DNA of 64,000 nucleotides from Cloacimonetes bacterium SCGC AAA252-N17 (GCA_000404785.1 ASNI01000006.1:3037-67036); one strand, 5' to 3'; numbered from the stretch's first letter, positions 1-54,543 are shown. The notes: generated by a model from the letters alone, not told the origin. Translations and numbers: made by a program.

Positions 1-45
1 TCCAGAGAAACTTGTATTTATAGGAAGTAATGTAAAAAAGTAGAA

Positions 46-474
46 ATGACTATTAATAAAGAAAAAATTATAACTCTGATTGGCGAAGCAAGAAACGCAT
101 TAGGTCAACTCGCTCGATATGAGGATGTATCTCTTGATGCATTACTTAAAGATGATGAGAAATTAGGAAATATAAAATATCAACTTATCATTCTGATAGA
201 AGCTTGTATCGATATGTGTGCCCATATTACAGCGAAATCTCTTAACGTCGCTCCGGAAAGTTATTCCCATTGTTTTCAATTGTTGCAAGAAAATAATTTT
301 ATTGATGAAGGATTAGCTGATAAAATGTCTGAGATGGCAAAATTCAGAAATCTTTTGGTGCATTTGTATTGGAAAGTTGATAATATACGTGTTATTGAAA
401 TAGCTCAAACTAAAATGGATATATGCAATGAATTTATTCATTCGATTGTTAGAATCGTGAAACGTGAGTCATGA
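46..474 (+). CDS. HepT-like ribonuclease toxin (DUF86/HEPN)
   Basis: HEPN R-x4-H-x-Y motif RNLLVHLY; the MNT partner probably lies upstream of the window. Confidence 0.9.
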   Translation: MTINKEKIITLIGEARNALGQLARYEDVSLDALLKDDEKLGNIKYQLIILIEACIDMCAHITAKSLNVAPESYSHCFQLLQENNFIDEGLADKMSEMAKFRNLLVHLYWKVDNIRVIEIAQTKMDICNEFIHSIVRIVKRES

Positions 475-566
475 AAAGTGAAATGTGAATTTCACAGAAA
501 ATTAGTTGTCACTCTGATTCACTAGCTTAAGGATTGGGTATCGGAAATCTAATAAATTTAGAGTTT

Positions 567-836
567 ATGAATAATCCGGAAATTAAACAATTCATAAGAG
601 AAAACAGCTATCTTTTCTGGTGGATCAGGGAAGATGCAAAAGCGGAAATTAGCTTAAATCTATTGATAGAAACAATCTTGAATTATGGTGATATAGAAAG
701 CATAAAAAATTTATTTACACTTATCGGAATAAAAAAAGTTGCTGAAATTTTCTATCAGAGTATTCATCGAAAACGTGTTAACTATCATCCACGAACTATT
801 AATTTTTTTACACTTTATTTTACACGAAATGCATAA
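567..836 (+). CDS. Small putative antitoxin of the AbiEii-type nucleotidyltransferase pair
   Basis: About 89 aa from ATG 567; YLFWW..ETILNYG pattern; stop overlaps the start of the AbiEii-type gene. Confidence 0.6.
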   Translation: MNNPEIKQFIRENSYLFWWIREDAKAEISLNLLIETILNYGDIESIKNLFTLIGIKKVAEIFYQSIHRKRVNYHPRTINFFTLYFTRNA

Positions 837-1446
837 AGAGATACTTACAAAAAATCAACAGAAATTACTGCCCTTTGTTAAGGATTTTTCAAATAACTAT
901 TATCTTGTTGGTGGAACAGCAGTCGCATTATATATAGGACACCGAAGATCTATAGATTTTGACCTTTTTTCAGATAAAGCAATTGATAGAGGTGATATCA
1001 AACGTTTGATTGAACATAATGATTTATCAATCCAGAAGACTATATTCGAAGCTCATGATCAGCTTCATTTAATTATTGAAGACGTGAAATTTACATTTAT
1101 GCAATTTCCCTTTAAGATTGAAGCGAATACGAATTTTAATACTATAATTAACTTGCCTGCATTGATCGACCTGGCAACAATGAAATCCTATGCACTTGGC
1201 GGAAGAGCAAAATGGAAAGACTATGTTGATCTGTACTTTCTTCTTAAATTTCATTTCAATCTGGATGAGATTATTTCAAGAGCAAAAAAAATATTTTGTA
1301 ATTATTTTAATGAGAAGCTTTTTCTGGAACAGCTTTCGTATTTTGATGATATAGACGAAAGTGAAAAAATCGAGTTTATGTGTGAACCTGTAAATGATGA
1401 TGAGATCAAAAATTTCTTGATTGATGTGGCGACCCAAACTTTTTAA
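829..1446 (+). CDS. AbiEii/AbiGii-family nucleotidyltransferase toxin
   Basis: YLVGGTAVAL..HRRSIDFDLF and K..A..GRAKWKDYVDLY motifs; ATG 829 in frame with the track ORF. Confidence 0.85.
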   Translation: MHKEILTKNQQKLLPFVKDFSNNYYLVGGTAVALYIGHRRSIDFDLFSDKAIDRGDIKRLIEHNDLSIQKTIFEAHDQLHLIIEDVKFTFMQFPFKIEANTNFNTIINLPALIDLATMKSYALGGRAKWKDYVDLYFLLKFHFNLDEIISRAKKIFCNYFNEKLFLEQLSYFDDIDESEKIEFMCEPVNDDEIKNFLIDVATQTF

Positions 1447-1542
1447 TAAACGTAATCATAATGAATAAAAAAATTGTGTTTATTTATCTCATTGTTTTTA
1501 ATGCTTAATTCTTCATTATGAAAACAAATGTTGTTCTTGAAA

Positions 1543-1617
1543 AAAGTAGAAATTAAAAAGCAGAAAGCAGAAATTAAAAAGCAGAAAGTTTACCCCGTGA
1601 AATCTTTTGTTACTAAT
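1543..1617. repeat. Heptamer array (GCAGAAA-type) plus left arm of a palindromic REP-like element
   Basis: gtagaaattaaaaagcagaaagcagaaattaaaaagcagaaagttt followed by ccccgtgaaat (1593-1603); near-identical context at 9655-9740. Confidence 0.7.
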
Positions 1618-1619
1618 TA

Positions 1620-3169
1620 GTCGACCCTGAAAAACTCTGTTTTTGTGCATTAGATTATTTACATTTTCATTACATTTAAGCATAAGATTTACAATATGAA
1701 TTGAGATATGGGTCAGATTGTATAATTTTAACATAATTTTCCAAGAAATTGAGCATTTTTTTGATAAAAACAGTAAAGACAAAAAAAGCAGACGCAATTC
1801 GCCTATAGATCATCCGTAAATTATATCCACAGGCTGAGAATACTACATTTAATGAATCTCCCTCTTTACCTTTAAGATAGTTGCGATCAAGACGATGTTC
1901 GCCTTTCATATGTCCAATATCCGCTTCAATGACGCTACGCCGATTATACCACCTCCGCTGTGAACGTGTAAGACGCTTTCTACTTCTTCCTACAATATGA
2001 ATCTCTGCTTCACCTTCATAATCATGCTTCCGATACCCAAGATCTACATACACATCTTCCAGGTTGCCAACCGAACGCACATTGCTCTTCGCTTGATGTA
2101 AAGTCTCTTGTAAAGTATGACCATCATAAGGATTCCCATGAAAAGCTACTGCCGACAATATAAAACCTTCTTTAGACGTTCCCGTAAATCCAACCTTGTT
2201 GCCAAATTCATAACGCTTATGTGCCTTCCCTTTGCAGATACATTCCACATGTGGCTCATGAACACTATAAAGTTTATGCTTACTCGTTTTCGTTTGACTC
2301 AAACCCTTATCCACTAACTGTCTTAATGCCTCGAAATCTTTATCCATAAGAAGTTCCGGTGTCGCTTTCCGAAGAATATCTCGATACAATCTCCCAAGTG
2401 AGGTCCTTAACTTACTCTTAACGCTCATGGCTCGTTTCATCTGTTTCGCATGCACATAACCGCCATGTCTACGAAGCAAAGTCTTACCTGATCTCTCATA
2501 GGTCTGTTTCATTGGAATATCATGTGATTTCGCTTTTCTAACAAGATGTTGGATTAATCTGTAATACAACTTTACATCTGTAGGAAAGGTGATGTTCTTC
2601 TCCTGTACTGTTGTATCAACATTTACCTTCTTGATGCTCTGCTTCCTTATCGTTTTCGTCTTTAAACCCGACTTGATCGTTGTCTCAAGAAGCTCTTGTA
2701 AATGTGAATCTTTAAGTCGATTACGCCACTTGGTCATGCTGGTAGGATGAATCGGGAACTCTGTCTGAAAATATTCTTCTCCGCAGAAATACTGCCAGTA
2801 GGGGTTCTCGATCCATTGCTCCACAAGAACTTCATCACTCAGGTTTTTCATATACTTCAGGAAATGAAGACCCACCATTAAACGCACCGATTTCGCAGGA
2901 CGCCCCATATCTTCTGAATACAATACCTTGAATGATTCATTAAGATCATCCCAAGATATACTATTCGCTAATCTACAGAGCGGATGTGGAAGATTTAGAA
3001 TATTTGGAAGATACATTTGAAACATATTTGGTTCATTTACTTTATTTTTTATCATCATAAACTCTCAGACTTTTAAGCATTTCTGCACCTTTTTTGGGAG
3101 TTTATTACGTACTAAAATCCTCGTAGTCAAGTTATTTATCAAGGCCTTAACAACTTTTTCAGGGGGAAC
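1620..3169 (-). mobile_element. IS5-family insertion sequence
   Basis: Imperfect terminal inverted repeats gtcgaccctgaaaaa / tttttcagggggaac; TA on both flanks (1618-1619, 3170-3171) as probable target duplication; single transposase inside. Confidence 0.8.
1676..3058 (-). CDS. IS5-family DDE transposase
   Basis: GRP..RLMVGL..LSDE..W.ENPYWQYFCG N-terminal domain; VDTTVQEK, D.GYR, RRSVIE..IGHMK DDE segments. Confidence 0.92.
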   Translation of the reverse strand: MMIKNKVNEPNMFQMYLPNILNLPHPLCRLANSISWDDLNESFKVLYSEDMGRPAKSVRLMVGLHFLKYMKNLSDEVLVEQWIENPYWQYFCGEEYFQTEFPIHPTSMTKWRNRLKDSHLQELLETTIKSGLKTKTIRKQSIKKVNVDTTVQEKNITFPTDVKLYYRLIQHLVRKAKSHDIPMKQTYERSGKTLLRRHGGYVHAKQMKRAMSVKSKLRTSLGRLYRDILRKATPELLMDKDFEALRQLVDKGLSQTKTSKHKLYSVHEPHVECICKGKAHKRYEFGNKVGFTGTSKEGFILSAVAFHGNPYDGHTLQETLHQAKSNVRSVGNLEDVYVDLGYRKHDYEGEAEIHIVGRSRKRLTRSQRRWYNRRSVIEADIGHMKGEHRLDRNYLKGKEGDSLNVVFSACGYNLRMIYRRIASAFFVFTVFIKKMLNFLENYVKIIQSDPYLNSYCKSYA

Positions 3170-3174
3170 TACTT

Positions 3175-3300
3175 ATCCCGTTAAATCTCATCTTTTTGTA
3201 TTTAACTGGGACCTGTCCCGTTAAATCTCATCTTTTTGTATTTAACTGGGACCTGTCCCGTTAAATCTGTTTTATTTATTTAACTGGGATTTCACTGGGG
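3175..3300. repeat. Three tandem 40-bp hairpin repeats inside an outer palindromic arm
   Basis: cccgttaaat..atttaactggg-acctgt units starting at 3177, 3217 and 3257; closes with atttcactgggg (3289-3300). Confidence 0.9.
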
Positions 3301-3325
3301 CAGAAAGATAAAAGATTAAAAAGAA

Positions 3326-3721
3326 ATGAAAATTGACATAGATAGAATTAGCAAAGAACTTTTTAATACTATTCCAGAAGCTGAATTTGCATATATTTTT
3401 GGATCTACACAAGATGGGAATATAGGCAAAAACTCAGATATTGATATTGCATTTTATTTTTCTAAAAATATTGAAATATCTGAAACTTTAATATTAAAAA
3501 TTTTTAAAAGTTTCGAAAAAATCTATCCTAACCTAACCTTGGATATTTGTAATTTAAATACTGCTTCTCTGATCTTACGGTTCGAAGCTTTAAGGGGAAC
3601 ATTGTTATTTGTAAGAGATAGTTTTAAAGATAAGTTTGCAGAATTTTTTTCTCTGACAGCTCGTGAATACGAAGATGAAATGTATAGAAGAAAACTTCAG
3701 TTGAAGTATAGAGGTTATTAA
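3326..3721 (+). CDS. Minimal nucleotidyltransferase (MntA-type antitoxin)
   Basis: FGS-x10-DIDIA motif; stop overlaps the HepT start. Confidence 0.88.
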   Translation: MKIDIDRISKELFNTIPEAEFAYIFGSTQDGNIGKNSDIDIAFYFSKNIEISETLILKIFKSFEKIYPNLTLDICNLNTASLILRFEALRGTLLFVRDSFKDKFAEFFSLTAREYEDEMYRRKLQLKYRGY

Positions 3722-4137
3722 TGGAATATAATGGTGTAATTGAAAATAAAATTCGATTACTTGAAAATAAAATCGAAGAAATCAGATCGTGGGATATTAC
3801 TTCTTTAAATAAAATTAAAAAGAGTACTCTAATTAGAAATGCTGTTGAGCGAGCATTGCAAGTATCAATTGAAATTATGTTGGATATAGCTGAAAGAATC
3901 TTGGCTTTAGAAAATTGCAAACCCACCATGAGTTCATCTGAAGCTATTGCAAAATTGGAAGATTTAGGCATAATAAAAGAATCTGAAAAATATATTGATA
4001 TGATAAGATTTCGCAATTTTATTGTTCATCGTTATGAATATGTTGATATTAATATTCTCTTTACTATTGTTACTAAAAAACTGCATTATTTTGAATATTA
4101 TGTTGATGAAATAAGAAATGCGATTTCAATTGGTTAA
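3721..4137 (+). CDS. HepT-like ribonuclease toxin (DUF86)
   Basis: RNFIVHRY HEPN motif; ERALQVSIEIMLDI helix. Confidence 0.9.
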   Translation: MEYNGVIENKIRLLENKIEEIRSWDITSLNKIKKSTLIRNAVERALQVSIEIMLDIAERILALENCKPTMSSSEAIAKLEDLGIIKESEKYIDMIRFRNFIVHRYEYVDINILFTIVTKKLHYFEYYVDEIRNAISIG

Positions 4138-4177
4138 TACGCCATGACAAGACGCCGTGATAAGAAAGAAGAAAGAT

Positions 4178-4300
4178 AAACCACCCGTCTTCGTTACACT
4201 TCAGTCTTTGCTACGCTACGCCCAGACAGGACGCCGAGGCAGGCGAAATACACCAGTCTTCGCTACGATTCGCCGAGGCAGGCGAAATAACACGAAAAAT
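4178..4300. repeat. CACGAAA-type array interrupted by nested CCGTCTTCG/CAGTCTTCG palindromic units
   Basis: aaccac[ccgtcttcg..gcagg]cgaaatacac[cagtcttcg..gcagg]cgaaataacacgaaaaa. Confidence 0.65.
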
Positions 4301-4394
4301 TAAAGAAATTGAATAAAGAAAAAAGAATCTCCCAAAAACAAGTTGTCATTCATCCGTCTTCGTTGCACTACGCCATGATATGAAAGCAAAAAGT

Positions 4395-4580
4395 TTACCC
4401 CGTGAAATACGAAAGTATATTTCACAGGGTGAACCCCTTGAAATCTGTTACTATTTATCCCGTTAAATCTCATCTTTTTGTATTTAACTGGGACCTGTCC
4501 CGTTAAATTTGTTTTATTTATTTAACTGGGACCTGTCCCGTTAAATCTGTTTTATTTATTTAACTGGGATTTAACTGGGG
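4395..4580. repeat. REP-like hairpin plus three tandem cccgttaaat..atttaactggg units
   Basis: Near-identical to the block at 3175-3300; preceded by ccccgtgaaat..atttcacagggtg. Confidence 0.88.
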
Positions 4581-4600
4581 AAGAAAGATAAAAAGAAAAA

Positions 4601-5346
4601 ATGAATCCATTTCAATATGGCAATATTGTATCAGGAGATTTCTTTTATGACCGCAAGGAAGAGTTGTTGCGCATTAAGCAAACACTGAAGGGGGGAAACA
4701 ACTTAATGCTTTATGCTCCCAGGCGCTACGGGAAATCTTCTTTGGTAGCAAAGGCTATGAACACCATCAGAATGTATCATATTTGTTTCTCGGAAGCCGG
4801 ACACATCTTTTGAAAAATATGTTTAACAACAAAAACAGGGCTTTTTATAATGCAGCAATGCTTATGAATATTAGAGCAATGGATACTGAACATTCTATTA
4901 ATTTTTTATCTGATCGTTTTGCAAAAGATAATATTGACATATTAAGAAACACTGCCTTATACCTTATTAAAAAAGTTGATAGTATTCCTTATTATATTCA
5001 ATTTGTAGCAGCAGAGATCTGGCAACAGATTATTAACAATAAACAAAAAATCACTAATTACCACGTTGATAAAGCATTAGAACATATTATTGATTTAAAA
5101 TCTGATTATTATTGGGAATTAACAAATAAACAAACAAATTATAGAAAAAAAGTTTTGTATGCCATCAGTAAATCTGTTGAAGAGTTGTTTTCAAAAAAAA
5201 CAACAAATGATTATAATCTCGGACCTGTCTCAACAACTCAAAAAGCTGTTAAATCTTTTATTAATGAGGGCATTATAGAACGTTTTAATAATCAATACAA
5301 ATTTTCCGACCCTATCTATAAATTGTTTTTAATCAAAAATTTATGA
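4601..5346 (+). pseudogene. AAA/archaeal-ATPase-family protein with internal deletion and frameshift
   Basis: NPF.YG..V..FYDRKEEL and Walker A APRRYGKSSL in one frame; at about 4765 the match switches frame to HQNVSYLFLGSRTHLL; the Walker B region is missing. Confidence 0.75.
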
Positions 5347-5387
5347 TTATACCTAAAGGCGTAACGCTCACGGACGTAGTCAGGGGA

Positions 5388-5459
5388 AAAGCAACCCAGT
5401 TCACCCCGTTAAATCCCTTCAGGATCCCGATATATCGGGATATTTAACAGGGTGAAATA
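5388..5459. repeat. 72-bp palindromic repeat, copy 1
   Basis: caccccgttaaat..cccgatatatcggg..atttaacagggtg; differs from 6208-6279 at 2 positions. Confidence 0.9.
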
Positions 5460-5541
5460 TAAAAATAAAGCCATTTCACCCATGTGTAATAACAGATAAA
5501 AGAGATTACACCCCGATTAAATAAAGGTGAAAAAGGAAAAT

Positions 5542-5838
5542 ATGAATTTATATGATATAATTAACTTCATAAAAAATAATAAAAAATTTCTAAAAAAACA
5601 ATATGGGGTTGAAAAAATTGGGATTTTCGGCAGTTATGTTAAAAATAATATTAAAGATGACAGTGATATAGATATTGCGATAGAAATGGCTAAAGAGAGT
5701 AAAACCCTTCATAATTTTTTGGAACTCAAAAGGTATTTAGAAAAGAATCTACAAAGGGAAGTTGACTTAGGTATTGAATCAAATTTAAAAAAAGCTGTTA
5801 AAAAAAAAATAAAAAGTGAAATTATATATGCCTACTAA
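5542..5838 (+). CDS. Minimal nucleotidyltransferase (MntA-type antitoxin)
   Basis: YGVEKIGIFGSY..DSDIDI; ATG 5542 follows an AAGGA SD-like sequence (the track uses GTG 5527). Confidence 0.9.
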   Translation: MNLYDIINFIKNNKKFLKKQYGVEKIGIFGSYVKNNIKDDSDIDIAIEMAKESKTLHNFLELKRYLEKNLQREVDLGIESNLKKAVKKKIKSEIIYAY

Positions 5839-6163
5839 AGATCGACTATACCTCGAAGATATCATCGCATCAATAGAAGCGATAAAAATATATACTAAAG
5901 ATATAGAATATAAAGAATTTGTAAAAGACCGCAAAACACATTCTGCAACAATAAGAGAATTAGAAATTGTTGGTGAAGCAGTAAGCAAGCTGTCTGAAAA
6001 TATAAAAAATAAAGCCCCTGAGGTTCATTGGAGAGATATTAAGGATTTACGAAACCTCCTAATTCATGAATATTTTGGTGTAGACCTTGAAATCTTATGG
6101 AATATTGTAAATAATGATATTCCAATACTCCATAAAGCGATAAAAACTATTTTAAGTGATTAA
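5828..6163 (+). CDS. HepT-like ribonuclease toxin (DUF86)
   Basis: YLEDI..IE, ELEIVGEA, W..IKDLRNLLIHEYFGVD. Confidence 0.92.
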   Translation: MPTKDRLYLEDIIASIEAIKIYTKDIEYKEFVKDRKTHSATIRELEIVGEAVSKLSENIKNKAPEVHWRDIKDLRNLLIHEYFGVDLEILWNIVNNDIPILHKAIKTILSD

Positions 6164-6207
6164 GATTTTTGCGGAATGACATTAGTGTTTCAAAAGACCA
6201 AAGACTT

Positions 6208-6279
6208 AAAGCAACCCAGTTCACCCCGTTAAATCCCTTCGGGATCTCGATATATCGGGATATTTAACAGGGTGAAATA
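6208..6279. repeat. 72-bp palindromic repeat, copy 2
   Basis: Direct repeat of 5388-5459 at an offset of 820 bp. Confidence 0.9.
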
Positions 6280-6294
6280 AAAGAAAAAGAAGAT

Positions 6295-6765
6295 TCCACC
6301 CCGATTAACCCGGTGAAATAAAAGACAGATTTCACAGGTTAAAAATAAAAGAAAGAATTTAATGGGGTAAACAGGGCAGGCCGAGAACACCGAATAACAC
6401 AGAAAAGGCTGAGATGATTTATAAAAAAGTAATTGTCATTCTGAATCCGCCAGCCGGCGGAGAAGAATCTCCTAAAAGTAATTGTCATCCCAGTTGAATA
6501 GAAAAGAAAGATTCAACGGGATAAATTCTGAAGCACATTCGCCTTGCTCAGTATAAACTCCGCGAAGTTTACAATCCCGATTTATCGGGGAATCTCGCAA
6601 GAAGAACGTTAATCAATCCTTCTGAGAGATCCTTCCCGTCTTTATTTCACTTCAGTCTTCTCCGCCAGCTGGCGGATACGCCCAGACAGGACGCCGTGAC
6701 AGGTCCGTCTTCGTTGCACTTCGCCGTGACAGGCGCTCACTTAGTTCACTCGAGGATGACAAAGA
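6295..6765. repeat. Composite nested REP-like array (TTGTCATTCTG..GAAGAATCTC / GAGATCCTTC..AGGATGACAA with inserted hairpins)
   Basis: Same units as those around 52480-52773 and at 55870-56170. Confidence 0.8.
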
Positions 6766-6800
6766 AAAAAGAAATTAGAAAACGGTTAAAATGTAAAACA

Positions 6801-7190
6801 ATGAAAAAAGATATCATAAACATAATAAAAGAAATGCTATTTGCAAGAAAGGAAATTATTGCCGCATTTATCTACGGCTCATTCCTTAATACCGAAGATT
6901 ACGATGATATTGATGTTGGGGTATTTACAAATTGTGCATTTCAAGGTTTAGAAAAACCGGATTATGAATTTGAATTAGAGCAATTATTATCAAAGAAACT
7001 AACAGGTAGCAAAATCGATCTTAGAGTAATTGATGATGCTCCGGATAAATTTTTATATAATGTTTTCAAGGGTTGCTATCTATTTTCTAAAGACGAAAAA
7101 ATTGAAAAAATAATAGAGCATGTAATACAAAAAAGCATGGATCAACAATATTATCAAATCCAATATGTGCAACAAGCTTATGGAGTTTAA
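6801..7190 (+). CDS. Minimal nucleotidyltransferase (orphan MNT)
   Basis: IYGSF..DDIDVGV; the track N-terminal extension from 6696 is repeat-derived; the overlapping downstream frame stops after MEFN. Confidence 0.8.
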   Translation: MKKDIINIIKEMLFARKEIIAAFIYGSFLNTEDYDDIDVGVFTNCAFQGLEKPDYEFELEQLLSKKLTGSKIDLRVIDDAPDKFLYNVFKGCYLFSKDEKIEKIIEHVIQKSMDQQYYQIQYVQQAYGV

Positions 7191-7209
7191 TTAATGATAG
7201 ATAAACAAC

Positions 7210-7395
7210 ATGAAAAGAATAATTTTTTTAACTAAGTTAAAAGAACAAAAAAAACAGGATTTGAAATTCAGACGTTCAATGAGTTCGGAAGAGCGCTTGA
7301 GCGAAGTAGAAAGTCTCAGAATTCAAGCTGGTAAATTTTTATATGAATATCCAACAAGATTTCGAAGAATTATTAGAATTGCTCATAGAGCATAA
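7210..7395 (+). CDS. Small basic hypothetical protein, putative partner of the downstream nucleotidyltransferase
   Basis: 61 aa containing MSSEERL..VESLR; overlaps the next gene. Confidence 0.55.
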   Translation: MKRIIFLTKLKEQKKQDLKFRRSMSSEERLSEVESLRIQAGKFLYEYPTRFRRIIRIAHRA

Positions 7396-7789
7396 GGTAA
7401 AATACCTTATCGTTGGGGGATATGCTGTTGCTTTCCATGGATATCCGAGATTTACAAATGATATTGATATTTTTTATGAAATGAGTGAAGAAAATGTAAA
7501 AAAAATTACCGATTGCCTGGTGGATTTCGGATTTTCTAACTCAGAAGTTAACGGGAAACTATTTTTGGAAAAAGGTAATATCATTGTTATTGGAGTTGAA
7601 CCGCTGAGAGTGGATTTTATTAACGATATTGATGGAGTAGAGTTTGCAGCTGCTTGGGAAAATAGAATCAAGGGTAAATATGGTTCTGTTGAAGTAAATT
7701 TTATTTCAAAAACTGATCTGATAAAGAACAAATCAAAAACTAAAAGATCTGAAGATAAACTTGATGTAGAAAAGCTTACAGAAATTTGA
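7343..7789 (+). CDS. Nucleotidyltransferase-fold protein (putative toxin)
   Basis: YLIVGGYAVAFHGYPRFTNDIDIF; C-terminal DLIKNK..KR.ED..DVE. Confidence 0.8.
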   Translation: MNIQQDFEELLELLIEHKVKYLIVGGYAVAFHGYPRFTNDIDIFYEMSEENVKKITDCLVDFGFSNSEVNGKLFLEKGNIIVIGVEPLRVDFINDIDGVEFAAAWENRIKGKYGSVEVNFISKTDLIKNKSKTKRSEDKLDVEKLTEI

Positions 7790-7816
7790 AAGAAATATAA
7801 GGTTGTTACGAAGATA

Positions 7817-8146
7817 ATGCTGCATACCGGTCTCACTTCAGATAAATGGAAAACTTTTAGTATTGATAAGCAGATACTTATGATCGCTAATGAAATGAAT
7901 CGGGCAAAGAATTGGATTGAGAAGAAGGATTTTGAGAAGGTTTTGCATTGCTATGAGCGCGCTTTTGAGCTTATTGATCTCACTGTTGATTCGTCAAAGA
8001 ATAGAAGTTTGATTAATGAGTTAATGAGGGTTCGTGAACTTCTTGCAACAGAATACATTCATAGAGCTGATAATTCCGAGCAGAATATGAAAATATTTAA
8101 AGTTTTGCTTTCCTTAAATTTAGAAAGTTATAATATCTATAACTAA
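7817..8146 (+). CDS. Hypothetical all-helical protein
   Basis: 109-aa ORF (QILMIANEMNRA..YERAFELIDLT); stop overlaps the MNT start. Confidence 0.65.
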   Translation: MLHTGLTSDKWKTFSIDKQILMIANEMNRAKNWIEKKDFEKVLHCYERAFELIDLTVDSSKNRSLINELMRVRELLATEYIHRADNSEQNMKIFKVLLSLNLESYNIYN

Positions 8147-8415
8147 TGAAAAGAGAAAAAATACTACATACACTAAAAGATTTTAAAGAAAATAATACTG
8201 ATAAATATGGTATTTTGACTTTAGGAATTTTCGGCTCTTACGCAAGAGGAGAAGCTAAATCTGACAGTGATCTTGATATTGTAGTTGAAATTTCAAATGT
8301 AGATATGTTTTTATTGGTTCATATGAAAGATGATTTAGAAAAAATCTTTAATACCAAAATAGATATTGTGGTTAGAAAAGGGGAAAGAAGAGGTTCATAT
8401 TACGAATTAATATGA
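8146..8415 (+). CDS. Minimal nucleotidyltransferase, C-terminus apparently altered
   Basis: YGI..LGIFGSYARGEA..DSDLDIVV. Confidence 0.8.
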   Translation: MKREKILHTLKDFKENNTDKYGILTLGIFGSYARGEAKSDSDLDIVVEISNVDMFLLVHMKDDLEKIFNTKIDIVVRKGERRGSYYELI

Positions 8416-8416
8416 T

Positions 8417-8449
8417 ATGCCAACTTTATGCCAACTTTATGCCAACTTT
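8417..8449. repeat. 11-bp tandem repeat x3
   Basis: atgccaacttt repeated three times. Confidence 0.9.
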
Positions 8450-8605
8450 GAAATAGAGCTATAGGGAGCACAAGAAGGGTTCATTAAATTTCAGAGGTAA
8501 TACTAAACAAAGTTTCAAATAAAACAGCGAGTTTAGAACTTAAAAATTTGGAGAAAGAATTAAGAGTTTAATTAAAGAAAAACATGAATATGTGATGTCT
8601 AAACA

Positions 8606-8710
8606 GTTAAAACAAGGTAAAAGGGTAAAAGATAAAAGGTATCCGTCTTCATTACACTTCGCCGCGACAAGAAGGTAAAAGGTAAAAGATAAAAGGCAAA
8701 AATAAAATAA
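8606..8710 (+). repeat. AAAAGGT/AAAAGAT heptamer array with an inserted CCGTCTTC hairpin
   Basis: aaagggt aaaagat aaaaggt [atccgtcttc..gacaag] aaggt aaaaggt aaaagat aaaaggc, directly before ATG 8711. Confidence 0.75.
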
Positions 8711-8890
8711 ATGAAAAAATACGAAATTGACCTTAACGAAAGATTAATTCAATTCGCAATAAATACTTTCAAATTCCTGAAATCATTACCAAAAGATAAA
8801 GAATATGATGTTTTTACCCTGTGAACCCCCCGACGAGAGGGGGAGAAGTGTAACTTCTGTTTCACTGGGTGAAGATATAAACTATTAATA
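8711..8890 (+). pseudogene. Four-helix-bundle protein remnant disrupted by a 57-bp hairpin insertion
   Basis: MKKYEIDLNERLIQFAINTFKFLKSLPKDKEYDVF aligns with DLSERLLNF..LPHNKEYDVFRYQL of the gene at 9861; after the insert at 8816-8872 it resumes RYKL. Confidence 0.75.
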
Positions 8891-8976
8891 TCATTTATTT
8901 TAAAAATAAAGACATTATGGAAATAATTAATGTTATATTTTTTAAGCAACAATAAATGTATAAAAAAGGAGATGCG

Positions 8977-9189
8977 ATGCAAAAAATTACTTTAAATATT
9001 AAAGACGAATCAAAATTAGATATTTTTATACGGTTTCTTCGTGAAATAAGTTTCATTGAAATATCTAAAATAGAAAAATCAACAAACGATTTTGAAACAA
9101 AAAGTTTTAATTATTTGTTTGGTATTTGGAAAAACCGCTCCATTTCATTATCCGATATTAGGGAAAAAGCTTGGGGAAGGAGTCTATAA
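8977..9189 (+). CDS. Putative VapB-type antitoxin
   Basis: Short ORF ending LFGIWK..IREKAWGR; SD AAGGAG; directly abuts the PIN gene. Confidence 0.7.
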   Translation: MQKITLNIKDESKLDIFIRFLREISFIEISKIEKSTNDFETKSFNYLFGIWKNRSISLSDIREKAWGRSL

Positions 9190-9564
9190 ATGGTTTTATG
9201 TGATACCAATGTTATTATTGAATTCTTCAAAGGTAATAATAAAACACTTAAAGAACTTGAGCAAATTGGTTTTGATAATATAGTTATAAGTACAATTACT
9301 GTTATGGAATTATACTATGGGGCTTTAAATAAGAAAGAATTAAGTAAGATTAAAAAATGTATTCATTCTTTAAATGTTCATCAAATTGATTCCTATATCT
9401 CAGAAATTTCAGTTGAATTGATTGAAAAGTATTCTAAGAGTCATAACCTAATGATTCCAGATGCTATTATAGCTGCGACAGCAATTTCAATTAAAATGGA
9501 CCTCTATACTTACAATCTCAAAGATTTCTCTTTCATTAAAGAACTTAAGCTATATAATTTATAA
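9190..9564 (+). CDS. vapC: VapC PIN-domain ribonuclease toxin
   Basis: VLCDTNVII, TVMELYYG, IPDAIIAATA, TYNLKDF. Confidence 0.92.
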   Translation: MVLCDTNVIIEFFKGNNKTLKELEQIGFDNIVISTITVMELYYGALNKKELSKIKKCIHSLNVHQIDSYISEISVELIEKYSKSHNLMIPDAIIAATAISIKMDLYTYNLKDFSFIKELKLYNL

Positions 9565-9607
9565 GAGTTAACAAATTGAGGATGCAATTGAACCCATGGA
9601 AAATTCT

Positions 9608-9742
9608 AAAGATAAAAGGGAAGACAAAAGATAAAAGAAAAAAGACGAAAGATTAAAAGCAGAAAGTAGAAATTGTAAAGCAGAAAGTTTACCCCGTGAA
9701 ATCTTTTGTTACTATTTCACCGGGGTAGAAAGCAGAAAGGTA
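9608..9742 (+). repeat. AAAGAT/GCAGAAA heptamer array with an inserted ccccgtgaaat..atttcaccgggg hairpin
   Basis: Repeat read directly from the sequence; same architecture as 1543-1617. Confidence 0.75.
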
Positions 9743-9860
9743 TAATATGATAGAAAAATTAGATATTGACGATCATATAAAGAATAATCCTTTATTATAT
9801 AAATCATTTTTTTAGCATTAGAAATTATCAAATTGTATAAATATTTAACTGAAGAAAAGC

Positions 9861-10262
9861 ATGGAATACAAGATTAAAGACGAAAGACAAAAGAGCAAAG
9901 AAAAGAAGATTAATCGTGATCTTTCAGAAAGACTTCTTAATTTCGTTGTAAAGACTATGCAATTTCTACGATCACTTCCACATAACAAAGAGTACGATGT
10001 CTTTAGGTATCAACTATCAAAATCATCTTCGTCCATAGGCGCCAACTACGAGGAATCTCAAGCATGCACTGAAAATGAATTCAAGCAGCGAATAGCCATC
10101 TGTCTTCGTGAAGCTCGTGAAACAAATTATTGGTACAGAGTAATTGATAAACTGGACATTGGTGATAGCGAACAAAGAAAATATTTATTACAAGAATCCT
10201 ATGAATTAAAGTTAATATTTGGATCAATATACTCCAAATGCTACAAGAAGGCAAAAATATGA
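9861..10262 (+). CDS. Four-helix-bundle protein (23S rRNA IVS protein/Avd-like family)
   Basis: QLSKSSSSIGANYEE, F...IAICLREARETNYW. Confidence 0.9.
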   Translation: MEYKIKDERQKSKEKKINRDLSERLLNFVVKTMQFLRSLPHNKEYDVFRYQLSKSSSSIGANYEESQACTENEFKQRIAICLREARETNYWYRVIDKLDIGDSEQRKYLLQESYELKLIFGSIYSKCYKKAKI

Positions 10263-11800: not shown

Positions 11801-12042
11801 AAGAAGAAAGCATTAATAACAGGACAGGATGGTTCATATCTTGCTGAATTATTATTGGACAAAGGATATGAAGTACATGGGATTATCCGTAGGGCATCAA
11901 CTTTTAATACAGAAAGAATTGATCATTTATTCAATAATCCTGAAATCCATGATAAAAAATTATTTTTACACTATGGCGATCTAACGGATTCCAGTAATTT
12001 AAACCGTATATTGGGAAAAGTTAAACCCAATGAAATATACAA
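11793..12042 (+). pseudogene. gmd: Truncated GDP-mannose 4,6-dehydratase
   Basis: [48 protein letters not shown]; start out of frame; one ITG of ITGITG missing; similarity ends after EIYN. Confidence 0.85.
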
Positions 12043-12222
12043 TATTGGCTTCCAGCTGTTGATGTATATGCTGAGAATAACTATTTTTATGCAAATGATG
12101 AAAATGAAATATCGGTTATTATATATGACAAAAATGATGTTGTAAATAATCAGGAAAATATTGGACTAATATTTTATGATCCATGGGAAGACACTCAAAT
12201 TGATAGCTGTGGAATTTATTAG
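12040..12222 (+). pseudogene. 3-prime fragment of a beta-helix protein paralogous to 10259-11800
   Basis: [31 protein letters not shown] resembles INAENNYFGTTDPLIIEELIHDKNDL..NYIPF. Confidence 0.65.
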
Positions 12223-48538: not shown

Positions 48539-48910
48539 ATGAAAATAAGAACGCATAAAGATCTTGTAGTTTATCAATTAGCTTTTGATGCAGCAATGGA
48601 AATATTTGAAATTACAAAATTATTTCCTAAAGAAGAACGATATTCTTTAGTTGATCAAATGCGCAGAAGTTCTCGTTCTGTAGCAGCAAATATTGCAGAA
48701 GCTTTTAGGAAAAGAAAGTATCCAAAAGCTTTTATATCAAAATTATCAGATAGCGAATCTGAAGCTGCAGAAACTCAGGTGTGGTTAGAATTTACTTTGA
48801 AATGCAGATATATTGATGAAATTACATTTGATGATTTGTTTAATAATTATGATCATATAATTGGCAAACTTGTAAATATGAGTAGAGAGCCACAGAATTG
48901 GAGCATATGA
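48539..48910 (+). CDS. Four-helix-bundle protein
   Basis: FPKEERYSLVDQMRRSSRSVAANIAEAFRKR..KLSDSESEAAETQVW. Confidence 0.92.
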   Translation: MKIRTHKDLVVYQLAFDAAMEIFEITKLFPKEERYSLVDQMRRSSRSVAANIAEAFRKRKYPKAFISKLSDSESEAAETQVWLEFTLKCRYIDEITFDDLFNNYDHIIGKLVNMSREPQNWSI

Positions 48911-52218: not shown

Positions 52219-52224
52219 TAGTTG

Positions 52225-52465
52225 ATTGTCACTCTGATCAGCCAGTGGGCGGAGAAGAGTCTCCCAAAAGTAATTGTCATTCTGGAGCACATTCGCTTTG
52301 CTCAGTATAAGCCATGTGCTGAGCGTAGCGAATGCATCCGCGAAGAATCTCCCGAAAGTAATTGTCATTCTGGAGCGCAGCGAAGAATCTCCCGAAAGCG
52401 TTAATTTATCCTCTTTTGAGATCCTTCGTCAGGAATTAAAATTCCTTCCTCGAGGATGACAAGAA
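52225..52465. repeat. REP-like doublet array upstream of the GIY-YIG gene
   Basis: Three TTGTCA(C/T)TCTG..GAAGA(A/G)TCTC units, then inverted GAGATCCTTC..AGGATGACAA. Confidence 0.88.
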
Positions 52466-52479
52466 AGTAGTAAAAAAAG

Positions 52480-52773
52480 ATGCCACTCACCAAAACCTAT
52501 TATGTGTATATAATGACTAATAACTCAAAGACTCTTTACACAGGTGTAACAAATAATCTGGAAAGAAGAGTCTTTGAGCATAAACATGGTACTGTTAGAG
52601 GTTTCACAAAAAAGTATAATATTGATCAACTTGTGCATTATGAATCCTGTCCTGACATAAATGGAGCAATAAATAGAGAAAAGCAAATCAAAGGTTGGCT
52701 TAGAATCAAAAAGATCGAGTTAATTGAAAGTGTTAATCCAGAATGGAAGGACCTTAGTTATGGCTGGTTTTAG
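52480..52773 (+). CDS. Small GIY-YIG nuclease
   Basis: YYVYIMTN..LYTGVTNNLERRVFEHK..FTKKY..LVHYE..AINREKQIKGW. Confidence 0.93.
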   Translation: MPLTKTYYVYIMTNNSKTLYTGVTNNLERRVFEHKHGTVRGFTKKYNIDQLVHYESCPDINGAINREKQIKGWLRIKKIELIESVNPEWKDLSYGWF

Positions 52774-52796
52774 TGATTAATAGGTTAAAAAGCAAG

Positions 52797-53245
52797 ATTG
52801 TCATTCTGGAGGAGCACATTCGCTTTGCTCAGTATAAACTCCGCGAAGAATCTGGCAAAAACATTGATCTATCCTCTTGGGGAGATCCTTCGTCACCCCA
52901 ATGAATTGGGGATTCCTCGAGGATGACAAGGAAGGGGAAATTGTCATTCTGGTGAATGTCAGTTTCAACTGACTGAAGAAGAATCTCCCGAAAGTAATTG
53001 TCATCCCAGTTAAATAAAAAAAAGATTTAACGGGATAAATTCTGGAGCACTTTCGCTTTGTTCAGTATAAGCCATGTGCTGAGCGTAGCGAATGCATCCG
53101 CGAAGAATCTCCCGAAAACATTAATTTATCCTCTTGGGAGATCCTTTCCGTCTTCATTTCAGTCTTCGCTACACTACGCCCAGACATGACGCCGTGACAG
53201 GCGGTCACTTCACTCAGACAGCTGGCTGATGACAAAGTAATGTGT
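52797..53245. repeat. REP-like doublet array downstream of the GIY-YIG gene
   Basis: Same unit pair repeated twice, with different nested hairpins in the loops. Confidence 0.88.
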
Positions 53246-53262
53246 ATGACAATCAAAATTAA

Positions 53263-54156: not shown

Positions 54157-54543
54157 AAAAAGTAATACTCTTACTTATTGTCCTGTTGCTCGCTAATCTA
54201 ATTTATGCAGATTTTACCATTCCCCTTGATGATGATGTTTACGAGTATCTGCCCCGATAAATCGGGGGAAATATTGGGGAAAATCCCATCAATTGCTGTA
54301 TATCCATAATATTTTGATCGTATAGAAAATTATCTTAACAATATTGCTGATTACGAGAATATTGCGAGAAGCTAGTAAGAATCTGAGTTCCTCTCTGGAG
54401 AATTCACTCGTACTCAAAGAATAAGTGGGAAAGTATCCTTCTATTTGAACCGGCATCTCAAAGCGAAAGTTCAATACACTCTGATTAATACGAATAATAA
54501 AACTACAAATTATCTCTTTTCCGGACTGGAATTCCAATTATAA
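54153..54543 (+). pseudogene. Collapsed remnant of a Wzi-like paralog of 46880-48427
   Basis: MKKVILL..ADFTIPLDDDVYEYL* at the start and EFLSGEFTRTQ..NYLFSGLEFQL* at the end match both ends of the 46880 protein. Confidence 0.7.

What the first reader, a model, noticed from the sequence alone, without database searches (positions are those of the whole stretch)
46..9564. Dense toxin-antitoxin array punctuated by palindromic repeats, directly upstream of a polysaccharide locus
Seen: about 9.5 kb of co-oriented small genes (three HEPN, four MNT, an AbiEii pair, a second nucleotidyltransferase pair, VapBC) with repeat blocks in most of the spacers. Known: MNT-HEPN, AbiEii/MenT-type and VapBC modules act as TA or antiphage systems. 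Inference: this is an accretion array in which the palindromic repeats serve as entry and exit sites for TA cassettes, with no integrase visible in the window.
Basis: partly seen in the sequence, partly recalled or inferred. Interest (0 to 1): 0.65.

Follow-up and report, generated by a model that had tools for sequence, protein, structure and literature searches.

The report
Toxin-antitoxin island littered with selfish hairpins
This is a real, variable island of toxin-antitoxin genes in an uncultured Cloacimonadota bacterium. Its palindromic repeats are not gene-cassette docking sites but gene-less remnants of a small GIY-YIG nuclease element that litters intergenic DNA in many phyla.

Summary
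Window 46-9564 carries three HepT, four MNT, AbiEii, DUF6036-nucleotidyltransferase and VapC genes, with repeats in 7 of 9 larger spacers. The array also runs about 4.5 kb beyond the window start.

"Accretion" is supported. Five related Cloacimonadota loci have ssb directly followed by the GT2, LPG-synthase and LysM genes, which here lie at 51-56 kb. So the TA array plus a 41-kb polysaccharide locus is an insertion. Three other relatives carry different arrays.

"Palindromes as cassette entry/exit sites" is not supported:
- There is no integrase in the window or in the 10 kb upstream.
- The hairpins do not have attC geometry.
- They occur 0-6 per spacer.
- They also occur at non-TA sites in the window, and in at least 238 contigs from many phyla, mostly beside housekeeping genes.
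- Module homology with relatives stops short of the hairpins.

The hairpin arms are the inverted ends of an 84-87-aa GIY-YIG gene element. Its 3' arm encodes the protein's C-terminus (Y-L-T-G-stop). Full copies split four-helix-bundle genes; the array copies are ORF-less miniatures that nest into one another. That link appears undescribed in the literature I could search.

The parts
46..474 (+). HepT (HEPN RNase toxin). Its MNT partner ends at window position about 23 and lies mostly upstream of the window.
   Evidence: PF01934 E=4.5e-26; upstream MNT is L001 9595-9978.
567..1446 (+). AbiE-like pair: an 89-aa upstream ORF (567-836) plus the AbiEii nucleotidyltransferase (829-1446).
   Evidence: PF08843 E=1.9e-10; PADLOC AbiEii; gene calls in the SAGs.
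1588..1615 (+). 5' arm (GTTTACCCCGTGAAAT) and loop of an 'outer' hairpin. Its 3' arm is at 3290-3300. The loop has been invaded by the IS and by three inner hairpin units.
   Evidence: Sequence; intact paralogue at 9687-9727; the same composite with a single inner unit in L159/L196.
1616..3168 (-). IS5/IS1182-like insertion sequence (transposase 1676-3058). Imperfect terminal inverted repeats and an apparent CTA target duplication. Absent from metagenome contig L145.
   Evidence: DUF772 plus DDE_Tnp_1; L145 joins window 1619 to 3216.
3172..3300 (+). Three tandem ORF-less hairpin units (3172-3211, 3212-3251, 3252-3289), followed by the outer 3' arm TTTCACTGGGG (3290-3300).
   Evidence: z=-7.4; L145 has two units rather than three.
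3326..4137 (+). MNT (3326-3721) plus HepT (3721-4137), a type VII TA-like pair.
   Evidence: PF18765 E=1.4e-16 and PF01934 E=1.2e-20; ortholog in L192 at 83% nt identity, where homology starts at window 3310.
4184..4377 (+). Type-3 repeats (CCGTCTTCGTTRCACTWCGCC and relatives). Also present at 6635-6728, 8642-8666 and 53160.
   Evidence: The same family fills spacers in L192 and L196.
4393..4580 (+). One hairpin (4393-4434). Then an outer 5' arm (4431-4444), three inner units (4454-4493, 4494-4531, 4532-4569) and the outer 3' arm (4570-4580).
   Evidence: z=-7.3.
4601..5346 (+). ATPase_2 (archaeal-type ATPase) pseudogene with an internal 375-bp deletion.
   Evidence: PF01637 weak hit; intact 373-aa gene in L164.
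5399..5513 (+). Hairpin with an inner GC hairpin (5399-5456), plus two smaller hairpins (5450-5481 and 5484-5511). The block is duplicated at 6208-6308.
   Evidence: z=-6.0.
5527..6163 (+). MNT (5527-5838) plus HepT (5816-6163).
   Evidence: PF01909 E=4.9e-14 and PF01934 E=6.6e-27; PADLOC PDC-S09 E=1e-30.
6219..6745 (.). Repeat-filled spacer. It holds hairpins at 6219-6276 and 6307-6340, a half-site at 6349-6372, and type-2 units (TTGTCATTCTG...GAAGAATCTC). One type-2 unit is split by a minus-strand hairpin unit (6487-6521). Type-3 repeats follow. Length is polymorphic among the SAGs.
6801..7190 (+). Solo MNT (MntA-like).
   Evidence: PF18765 E=8e-13; NF047752, below its cutoff.
7210..7789 (+). 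A 61-aa ORF plus a DUF6036 nucleotidyltransferase (candidate TA pair). A paralogous pair lies upstream at L001 8873-9527 (41% aa identity).
   Evidence: PF19502 E=4.2e-7.
7817..8415 (+). A 109-aa ORF plus a truncated MNT. The 109-aa protein is 80% identical to L001 5875-6207, which is also followed by an MNT fragment.
8671..8874 (+). N-terminal fragment of a four-helix-bundle (23S-IVP/TIGR02436) gene (8711-8816), cut off by a hairpin (8813-8874).
   Evidence: 98.6% nt identity to the N-part of the split gene in L276; alignment to the intact window gene.
8956..9564 (+). VapB-like 77-aa ORF plus VapC (PIN).
   Evidence: PF01850 E=1.1e-15. The antitoxin has no family hit.
9655..9860 (+). Repeat block A' with an intact single hairpin (9687-9727), then a decayed N-terminal fragment of another four-helix-bundle gene (9731-9860).
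   Evidence: homology to L276 480-600.
9861..10262 (+). Intact four-helix-bundle (23S rRNA IVP family) gene abutting the NosD-like first gene of the polysaccharide island.
   Evidence: PF05635 E=8.9e-12. The same IVP-NosD junction is seen in L196, L276 and L280.
52219..53262 (+). Outside the finding: a 1-kb insertion between GT2 and LPG synthase (5 bp apart in relative L128). It holds a 97-aa GIY-YIG gene (52480-52775), type-2 and type-3 repeats, and one hairpin unit (53003-53040, minus strand).

Best explanation
**What it is.** Window 46-9564 is the distal two thirds of a roughly 15-kb toxin-antitoxin island in a Cloacimonadota population. It holds at least ten two-gene modules: MNT-HepT x4, AbiE-like x2, small-ORF+DUF6036 x2, 109-aa+MNT x2, and VapBC. 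Together with the adjoining 41-kb polysaccharide locus it forms a lineage-specific insertion of about 55 kb. The insertion lies around ssb, between conserved housekeeping genes.

**How the modules arrived (inferred).** They seem to have arrived one by one, most likely by ordinary recombination into a permissive hot spot.

**What the spacers are.** They are a sink for selfish DNA: an IS, fragments of four-helix-bundle genes, an ATPase pseudogene and three families of short repeats.

**What the main palindrome is.** It has the form ...C-CCC-GTKAAAT, a loop of 8-30 nt, then ATTTMAC-N-GGG-G... It is the ORF-less miniature form of a small mobile element.
- Shown: the full-length version carries an 84-87-aa GIY-YIG nuclease gene between the same two arms. 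The 3' arm doubles as the last codons, Y-L-T-G-stop. Full copies sit inside four-helix-bundle genes at conserved positions, in the manner of homing endonuclease genes.
- Shown: miniature copies insert into the 3' arm or loop of resident copies (at TA^TTTMAC) and into other repeats. This produces the tandem and nested blocks seen here.
- Inferred: the GIY-YIG protein is the enzyme that moves them.

The hairpins are passengers of the array, not the machinery that loads TA cassettes.
For: **Genes and repeats.**

**Real and fixed in the population, apart from IS presence, hairpin copy number and an ATPase deletion.**

**The island is an insertion.**
- L128, L129, L132, L133 and L134 show ...SSB-GT2-LPG synthase-LysM with no array.
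- Flank orthology is 63-83% aa.
- Their 20-kb regions contain none of the repeats.

**Arrays differ in relatives.**
- L126 and L192.
- L196, with three ssb copies interleaved with modules.
- Array paralogues are only 27-41% identical.

**No integrase or tRNA.**

**The hairpin is not TA-specific.**
- At least 119 genome contigs carry it, from Desulfobacterota, Cloacimonadota, Bacteroidota, Patescibacteria, WOR-3, Chlorobium and others.
- The copies are intergenic. 140 flanking ORFs fall in 184 Pfam families, with only 2 PIN.
- They favour convergent over divergent gene pairs, 19 to 5, with no strand preference, 20 to 24.
- A metagenome scan found at least 119 more contigs (GC 27-57%). About 10% of their neighbours are TA-like.

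**Arms equal the ends of the GIY-YIG element.**
- Seen in L152, L168 (compensatory GTTAGAT/ATCTAAC), L196, L216, L136 and L192.
- Seen again in loci chosen by protein alone: L256, L266, L276 (two copies) and L285. All five distinct contexts have both arms.

**Full copies split four-helix-bundle genes** at two recurrent sites.

**Discrete nested insertions.** Window 6487-6521 and 53003-53040 split a type-2 repeat. The outer hairpins at 1588...3300 and 4431...4580 hold 3 inner units, against 1 in L159/L196 and 2 in L145.
Against: - No autonomous 84-87-aa GIY-YIG copy lies in this window. Its only GIY-YIG gene (52480-52775) belongs to another subfamily and is flanked by type-2 repeats, not type-1 arms.
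- Mobility by the GIY-YIG protein is inferred from architecture only.
- In the window the type-1 hairpin is roughly 25-fold denser per intergenic kb inside the array than outside. The metagenome census shows a mild excess of TA neighbours. Some functional or mechanistic tie to TA spacers is therefore not excluded.
- The whole source genome could not be scanned, so genome-wide enrichment is unmeasured.
- How TA modules themselves are inserted remains unshown.
Confidence: 0.75

Rival explanations
1. Integron-like cassette array (a CALIN, or a new recombinase system). In this reading each TA module is a cassette, the palindromes are attC-like sites folded from single-stranded DNA, and a recombinase encoded elsewhere acts on them.
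For: - The small genes are co-oriented, with imperfect palindromes between them.
- The arms contain the heptamers ATTTAAC and GTTAAAT, which fit RYYYAAC and GTTRRRY.
- One arm has a constant extra or mismatched base.
- TA cassettes are common in chromosomal integrons, and CALINs need no nearby intI (PMC4889954).
Against: - The heptamers are in the wrong order and position. GTKAAAT is 5' and next to the loop; attC has RYYYAAC 5' at the stem base.
- About half the copies read GTGAAAT.
- Units are 36-58 nt.
- There are 0-6 units per spacer, and none at three gene junctions.
- There is no integrase within 10 kb upstream or 54 kb downstream.
- The same hairpin sits singly between housekeeping genes in many phyla.
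- The arms flank and partly encode a GIY-YIG gene.
- Homology of shared modules with L192 and L196 excludes the hairpins.
Confidence: 0.03
2. The repeats do drive array turnover, but indirectly. They would act as dispersed homology and as sites of nuclease-induced breaks. GIY-YIG cleavage in hairpins or four-helix-bundle genes would promote ectopic repair that inserts, deletes or swaps neighbouring TA modules.
For: - Breakpoints between this array and those of L192 and L196 fall in repeat-filled spacers.
- Near-identical repeat blocks sit at several spacers: 1556-1618 matches 9655-9717 at 94%, and 3168-3325 matches 4450-4605 at about 92%.
- In L196 three ssb copies bracket the modules.
- VapBC lies between a four-helix-bundle gene fragment and an intact copy.
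- Spacer length is polymorphic among the SAGs.
Against: - No population variant was seen that lacks exactly one module between two repeat blocks.
- The two four-helix-bundle copies flanking VapBC are not alike at the DNA level.
- L126 has an array without these repeats.
- Any spacer is where breakpoints would be tolerated anyway.
Confidence: 0.2
3. The hairpins are functional cis-elements of the TA operons. They would act as terminators, insulators or mRNA-stabilising stem-loops that keep adjacent toxin and antitoxin transcripts separate, and they have been retained by selection.
For: - They are stable stem-loops in the spacers.
- In other genomes they favour 3' ends: convergent 19 against divergent 5. 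REP elements, which can stabilise mRNA, behave similarly.
Against: - There is no U-tract and no excess of terminator-like sites (5 found, 4.5 expected).
- There is no orientation preference relative to transcription (20 same, 24 opposite).
- Copy number varies within the population.
- There is no Rfam match.
- Relatives' arrays work without them.
Confidence: 0.1

Closest known systems
Toxin-antitoxin / defence islands in variable chromosomal regions (Makarova et al. 2009, PMC2701414; HepT/MntA type VII TA, PMC7641770)
   Same: Clusters of diverse, mostly unrelated two-gene TA modules (MNT-HEPN, AbiE, VapBC). They are lineage-specific, sit next to other accessory DNA (here a polysaccharide locus), and carry IS and pseudogenes.
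   Different: Nothing essential. The unusual points are the density (at least 10 modules in 15 kb, all co-oriented), the position around ssb, and the load of short selfish repeats.
Sedentary chromosomal integrons and CALINs (Cury et al. 2016, PMC4889954)
   Same: Co-oriented small genes, many of them TA, separated by imperfect palindromes with an unpaired base. CALINs also lack a nearby integrase.
   Different: The palindromes do not have attC box order, size or one-per-cassette spacing. They occur singly beside housekeeping genes in many phyla. They are the termini of a GIY-YIG gene element.
REP/REPIN elements with RAYT transposases, and MITEs (PMC3116915, PMC3184786)
   Same: Short extragenic imperfect palindromes in many copies, biased to 3' ends of genes, nested or tandem, and polymorphic in copy number. 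They are non-autonomous derivatives sharing their ends with an ORF-bearing element.
   Different: The partner ORF is an 84-87-aa GIY-YIG nuclease, not a Y1/HUH or DDE transposase. One arm is coding sequence of that ORF. The same arm sequence is kept across phyla, whereas REPs are lineage-specific.
Free-standing GIY-YIG homing endonuclease genes (for example phage T4 seg/mob genes and I-TevI-type enzymes; from general knowledge)
   Same: A small GIY-YIG ORF is inserted at precise conserved positions of a host gene (the four-helix-bundle gene), with both gene halves still recognisable. Several subfamilies have different target positions.
   Different: There is no intron or intein context and no recognisable DNA-binding domain beyond about 85 aa. 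The element is bounded by inverted repeats that form a hairpin, and it spawns ORF-less miniatures that spread to intergenic DNA.
23S rRNA intervening sequences carrying the S23p/four-helix-bundle ORF (family PF05635; general knowledge)
   Same: The same protein family, and an ORF carried within a stem-forming insertion.
   Different: Here the four-helix-bundle genes are free-standing and multi-copy (9861, 48539, 50667 plus fragments). They are hosts of the GIY-YIG element, not inserts in rRNA.

Membership tests
Integron / CALIN | Integron integrase (tyrosine recombinase with the IntI-specific insert) next to the array. Not required for a CALIN. | tested here: not met
   No PF00589-type protein was found. 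This covers 10 kb upstream, the array, and the rest of the window.
Integron / CALIN | attC sites: an imperfect hairpin with R'' (RYYYAAC) at the 5' end and R' (GTTRRRY) at the 3' end forming the base of the stem, with L boxes and extrahelical bases inside. | tested here: not met
   Reading of all copies shows GTKAAAT at the 5' side and ATTTMAC at the 3' side, adjacent to the loop. Half the copies have GTG. The whole unit is 36-58 nt.
Integron / CALIN | One attC at the 3' end of each cassette. | tested here: not met
   There are 0-6 hairpins per spacer. Three junctions have none, and tandem units have no ORF between them.
Integron / CALIN | Detection by the attC covariance model (IntegronFinder). 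| not testable with these tools
   The model was not available. Rfam holds no matching family.
[quoted passage not shown] | Adjacent or overlapping MNT (GSx10DxD) and HEPN (Rx4-6H) genes, with MNT first. | tested here: met
   Three pairs fit: 3326-3721/3721-4137, 5527-5838/5816-6163, and L001 9595-9978/window 46-474. Domains are, motifs from the translations.
[quoted passage not shown] | HepT toxicity neutralised by MntA-catalysed AMPylation. | not testable with these tools
   This is a biochemical property.
AbiE (type IV TA / abortive infection) | AbiEii nucleotidyltransferase preceded by an AbiEi wHTH antitoxin. | tested here: inconclusive
   The AbiEii domain is met (PF08843 E=1.9e-10; PADLOC). 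The 89-aa partner has only a sub-threshold DUF6922 hit.
VapBC | PIN-domain toxin preceded by a small antitoxin gene that overlaps or abuts it. | tested here: met
   PIN E=1.1e-15. The 77-aa ORF ends 1 nt before vapC. The antitoxin fold is unassigned.
MITE-like non-autonomous element | Shares terminal inverted repeats with an ORF-bearing element. | tested here: met
   The arms of solitary hairpins match the arms flanking the 84-87-aa GIY-YIG ORFs. This holds in 11 loci, including 5 contexts selected by protein only.
MITE-like non-autonomous element | Insertion polymorphism or discrete insertions. | tested here: met
   Copy number is 2 against 3 units (L145 against the window), and 1 against 3 units in the same outer hairpin (L159/L196 against the window). 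One unit splits a type-2 repeat at two sites.
MITE-like non-autonomous element | Target-site duplication. | tested here: inconclusive
   No duplication is seen at the TA^TTTMAC insertions. A possible TTACGTA duplication in L285 is itself palindromic.
REP/REPIN-RAYT | Associated Y1/HUH (RAYT) transposase gene. | not tested
   The whole genome was not available. The arms instead flank a GIY-YIG ORF, so I do not file it here.
GIY-YIG homing endonuclease gene | GIY-YIG catalytic domain. | tested here: met
   PF01541 E=1e-15 to 1e-16 for L276 856-1110 and 1201-1464. Precomputed hits cover the homologues.
GIY-YIG homing endonuclease gene | Insertion at a conserved position of a host gene, with both halves retained. 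| tested here: met
   Four-helix-bundle genes are split at site A (...SKxxxS|GAN) in L192, L136 and L276#1. L196 is split close by (SNIA|EG). They are split at site B (...I[CKS]|[RK]EA.E..YW) in L266, L152 and L276#2.
GIY-YIG homing endonuclease gene | Cleavage of the empty target and copying into it. | not testable with these tools
   This needs an enzyme assay or a genetic cross.

The most novel reading that the evidence does not exclude
The palindromes may belong to an undescribed, cross-phylum family of selfish elements.
- The autonomous form would be an 84-87-aa GIY-YIG nuclease gene bounded by about 15-nt inverted arms, one of which encodes its own C-terminus. It homes into at least two conserved positions of multi-copy four-helix-bundle (TIGR02436/23S-IVP) genes.
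- It gives rise to 36-60-nt ORF-less hairpins. These colonise intergenic DNA and the arms or loops of resident copies.
- The family would span Cloacimonadota, Desulfobacterota, Bacteroidota, Patescibacteria and others.

A stronger form of the idea is that breaks made by this nuclease help remodel the TA island.
Probability: 0.45. Interest if true: 0.7.

Novelty: new variant of a known kind. Interest (0 to 1): 0.5.

Why it matters
**The TA island itself is ordinary biology.** It is a lineage-specific accumulation of addiction and defence modules beside a surface-polysaccharide locus. The analysis matters mostly because it stops the island being misfiled as an integron-like cassette platform.

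**The by-product is more interesting.**
- Thousands of tiny "GIY-YIG nuclease family proteins" sit in databases: 5205 homologues at E<=1e-10 in one search. Equally anonymous "four helix bundle proteins" sit there too.
- Both could be read as a host-parasite pair of selfish genes.
- A very widespread intergenic hairpin gets an origin as the miniature form of that nuclease element.
- If confirmed, this would add a nuclease-based analogue to the REPIN/RAYT and MITE/IS pairs.
- It would also explain many spurious small ORFs and assembly breaks in genomes of uncultured anaerobes.
- It would offer a compact nuclease with a defined DNA hairpin or target for biochemical study.

Tried and rejected
- **Rfam.** A gathering-threshold scan of the whole window and an E<=1 scan of 1-10300 found no family.
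- **tRNA integration site.** No tRNA gene in the window.
- **Intrinsic terminators.** No excess: 5 found against 4.5 expected.
- **dif/Xer-like reading** of ATTTAAC-TGGGA-CCTG-TCCC-GTTAAAT between tandem units. Rejected because solitary copies elsewhere have the arms in the other order around variable loops.
- **Chance as the source of the cross-phylum hits.** By my own estimate, a 20-base pattern in about 600 Gb would give on the order of 100 random matches. I rejected chance because the flanks extend the conservation, several contigs carry multiple copies, and the taxa are strongly non-random.
- **Tandem duplication as the origin of the array.** Paralogues are 27-41% identical.
- **Campbell-type duplication of the four-helix-bundle gene around VapBC.** The fragment and the intact copy are not similar at the DNA level.
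- **Literature searches** by repeat sequence, GIY-YIG plus MITE or inverted repeats, COG2827/UPF0213/YhbQ, and PF05635 plus GIY-YIG returned nothing relevant.
- **One failed script and three rejected tool calls**, plus one script that printed nothing, gave no data.

Full report
**1. What is in the sequence**

All sizeable ORFs in 46-9564 lie on the + strand, except one. Pfam assigns the following:
- HepT/HEPN: 46-474, 3721-4137, 5816-6163.
- MNT: 3326-3721, 5527-5838, 6696/6801-7190, 8146-8415.
- AbiEii: 739/829-1446.
- DUF6036 nucleotidyltransferase: 7343-7789.
- PIN: 9190-9564.

Small partner ORFs precede AbiEii (567-836), DUF6036 (7210-7395), the last MNT (7817-8146) and PIN (8956-9189). 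None of these has a family assignment.

- A 460-aa DDE transposase on the minus strand (1676-3058; DUF772 plus DDE_Tnp_1).
- A broken ATPase_2 gene (4601-5346).
- A fragment of a four-helix-bundle gene (8711-8816).
- An intact four-helix-bundle gene (9861-10262) that abuts the NosD-like first gene of the polysaccharide locus.

The repeats are far above chance. The half-site CCCGTKAAAT (up to 1 mismatch) occurs 38 times against 6.3 expected, and 30 of those lie in 1594-9723. The units fold as stable hairpins, with one unpaired or mismatched base always in the 3' arm. Two other repeat families share the spacers: TTGTCATTCTG...GAAGAATCTC modules, and CCGTCTTCGTTRCACTWCGCC.

**2. Source, and reality of the locus**

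The same DNA, 99-100% identical, is present in six single-cell assemblies and in metagenome contigs L145 and L164. Homologues of the flanking PHP protein are named Candidatus Cloacimonetes/Cloacimonadota.

The array continues upstream of the window. L001 5534-10000 holds DUF5674, a 109-aa paralogue plus an MNT fragment, ssb, AbiEi/AbiEii, 59 aa + DUF6036, and the MNT partner of HepT 46-474. It is bounded by PHP, metK and ahcY.

No integrase is encoded in those 10 kb or anywhere in the 64-kb window. There is no tRNA gene.

**3. Is it an accretion array? Yes**

Five loci from relatives have the order PHP-Rrf2-TauE-sulfate activation-(PLB-CitMHS)-SSB-GT2-LPG synthase-89 aa-LysM, with no TA genes. 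Their PHP is 76-88% identical to the one here. L128 was compared directly and gave these protein identities: SSB 83%, LPG synthase 79%, GT2 63%, metK 80%.

In the window those GT2, LPG synthase and LysM genes lie at 51193-55791. So the TA array and the 41-kb polysaccharide locus are inserted after ssb. The sulfate block has been replaced.

Other relatives have arrays at the same place, but with different content:
- **L126** has DUF5674, a 112-aa ORF, two MNT-type genes and others.
- **L192** has AbiEi/AbiEii (84% nt identity to the upstream copy here), followed directly by the ortholog of MNT 3326. Three modules and the IS that separate them here are missing.
- **L196** is part of a 249-kb contig. 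It runs DegT, SSB, two ORFs, AbiEii pseudogene, SSB, 59 aa + DUF6036, SSB, AbiEi-like, GMD, DUF5674 + 133 aa, DUF6036, MNT-HepT, IVP, NosD-like. Its three ssb copies are 88-93% identical.

Within the present array, same-family proteins are only 27-41% identical. The exception is the 109-aa pair at 80%. That argues for independent acquisitions rather than tandem duplication.

**4. Are the palindromes the entry and exit sites? No**

(a) *Geometry.* The heptamers ATTTAAC and GTTAAAT fit the integron R''/R' consensus. But in every copy GTKAAAT is on the 5' side and lies next to the loop, half the copies read GTGAAAT, and the units are 36-58 nt. attC sites have the opposite order, with the R boxes at the stem base (PMC4889954).

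(b) *Distribution in the array.* Spacers hold 0-6 units. Three junctions have none. Tandem units have no gene between them.

(c) *Elsewhere in the window.* One unit (53003-53040) and many type-2 and type-3 repeats fill the GT2/LPG-synthase spacer. That spacer is 5 bp long in L128 and 1045 bp here. More repeats fill the LysM/7TM-HD spacer.

(d) *Elsewhere in nature.*
They come from Desulfobacterota, Cloacimonadota, Bacteroidota, Patescibacteria, WOR-3, Chlorobium, Omnitrophota and others.
- These hairpins are intergenic. 140 neighbouring ORFs fall in 184 Pfam families, including ribosomal proteins, sugar-nucleotide enzymes and ABC transporters, with only 2 PIN.
- They prefer convergent to divergent gene pairs (19 to 5) and show no orientation preference relative to transcription (20 to 24).
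Its contigs range from 27 to 57% GC. About 10% of neighbours were TA-like and 90% were other genes.

(e) *Relatives.* L126's array has no such repeats. Homology between shared modules and L192/L196 begins a few bases before the start codon and ends with the coding region, so it excludes the hairpins.

**5. What the palindromes are**

In full-length copies the two arms flank a small GIY-YIG gene.
- The 5' arm (TT[TCA]ACCCTGTTAAAT or TTGCCCAGTGAAAT) lies 7-25 nt before the ATG.
- The 3' arm ATTTAAC-A-GGG-TGA/TAA supplies the codons Y-L-T-G-stop of the conserved C-terminus ...RLKSYLTG.

I first saw this in hairpin-selected contigs: L152 (two copies), L168 (with the compensatory pair GTTAGAT/ATCTAAC), L196, L216, L136 and L192. 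I then tested it on loci chosen by protein only.
- A search with one such protein found 5205 homologues at E<=1e-10. The 120 listed are mostly 84-87 aa and 71-99% identical to the query.
- All five distinct genomic contexts retrieved for four of them have both arms: L256, L266, L276 (two tandem copies) and L285.

In most contexts the element splits a four-helix-bundle gene (PF05635/TIGR02436), and both halves are still readable. The split falls at one of two recurrent positions:
- after ...SKxxxS, before (I)GAN; or
- after ...I(C/K/S), before (L)(R/K)EA.E..YW.

This is the behaviour of a homing endonuclease gene. The solitary hairpins of the array are the same arms around an 8-30-nt loop. They are ORF-less miniatures.

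Three observations show they are discrete insertions:
- A unit splits the type-2 repeat GTAATTGTCA|TTCTGG at 6487-6521 and again at 53003-53040.
- The outer hairpin that is intact at 9687-9727 carries one inner unit in L159/L196, two in L145 and three in the window (3172-3289). A second outer hairpin (4431...4580) also holds three inner units (4454-4569).
- The insertion point is always TA^TTTMAC of the resident 3' arm. This leaves the "extra half-site" at 3290-3300 and 4570-4580.

The IS lies in the loop of the first outer hairpin. It is absent from L145.

The array spacers also hold debris of the host gene family: 8711-8816 (98.6% identical to the N-part of the split gene in L276) and 9731-9860.

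**6. Mechanism, and what is shown versus inferred**

Shown:
- The island is an insertion, and it varies among relatives.
- The hairpins are not TA-specific.
- They share their ends with a GIY-YIG ORF element.
- They nest, and they vary in copy number within the population.

Inferred:
- The GIY-YIG protein mobilises both the full and the miniature forms.
- TA modules arrived by ordinary homologous or illegitimate recombination into a tolerant hot spot around ssb. The three ssb copies in L196 hint at repeated recombination anchored in that gene.
- The spacers accumulate selfish DNA because insertions there are harmless.

I give that about 0.2.

**7. Comparison and novelty**

- The TA content is a standard TA/defence island (PMC2701414). 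The MNT-HepT pairs meet the sequence criteria of type VII systems (PMC7641770).
- Membership in the integron/CALIN class fails three tested features.
- The hairpin family behaves like REPIN/MITE elements, but with a GIY-YIG nuclease partner and an arm that is coding sequence.
- I found no description of this, or of the GIY-YIG/four-helix-bundle association, in the searchable literature. That library lacks most subscription journals, so prior description cannot be excluded.

**8. Verdict**

- Observation: confirmed.
- Interpretation: half right. Accretion yes, cassette sites no.
- The finding as posed is ordinary. The origin of the palindromes is the part worth following up.

Noticed in passing
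window 1616-3168: An IS5/IS1182-like IS sits in the loop of a hairpin, with an apparent CTA target duplication. It is present in all six SAGs but absent from metagenome contig L145, so it is polymorphic in the natural population.
   Followed up: partly
window 52219-53262: A 97-aa GIY-YIG gene of a different subfamily (C-terminus DLSYGWF) is bracketed by type-2 repeat termini (GGATGACAAG ... ATTGTCATTCTGG). It fills a spacer that is only 5 bp long in relative L128. Type-2 repeats may be the miniature form of this second subfamily.
   Followed up: partly
window 48539-48910 and 50667-51038: Two more four-helix-bundle (TIGR02436) genes, 66% identical to each other, flank the UDP-glucose dehydrogenase gene inside the polysaccharide locus.
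   Followed up: partly
window 11855-12145: An N-terminal remnant of a GDP-mannose 4,6-dehydratase gene (PF16363 E=2e-19, 96 aa) lies at the start of the polysaccharide locus. An intact copy sits inside the TA array of relative L196 (6058-7185).
   Followed up: partly
window 58909-59352: A small PD-(D/E)XK (PDDEXK_3) ORF is wedged between ybeY and a CNNM/CorC gene. It may be another small selfish nuclease gene.
   Followed up: no
window 9601-9685, 1540-1587; L196 3458-3578; L126 19890-19950: Purine-rich AAAGAYAAAAG-type short tandem repeats lie just upstream of many array genes, including a 14-nt tandem run in L196. Their meaning is unknown. They also create a spurious N-terminal extension (MEYKIKDERQKSKEKK) on the ORF at 9861.
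   Followed up: no
L196 1044-1343, 3556-3855, 4939-5238: Three intact ssb copies (88-93% nt identical) are interleaved with TA modules in a related genome. This suggests repeated recombination anchored in ssb.
   Followed up: partly
L199 106-264, L227 34-312; protein P0148: A hairpin unit is inserted in frame inside a GIY-YIG ORF, adding about 12 residues. Separately, a database protein fuses HepT and GIY-YIG domains, which would fit an element inserted into a HepT gene (not examined further).
   Followed up: no
L076 1944-2192: In a Moranbacteria MAG, a GIY-YIG ORF ends inside what reads as the 5' end of a tRNA-Asn(GTT)-like sequence (identified by eye, not by a tRNA search). A hairpin and a CCGCCAGCTGGCGGA repeat lie upstream.
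   Followed up: no
window 6308-6733 compared with L001, L002, L006: The length of this repeat-filled spacer differs among the single-cell genomes (breaks at 6440-6474 and 6590-6733). This may be micro-variation or amplification/assembly noise.
   Followed up: no
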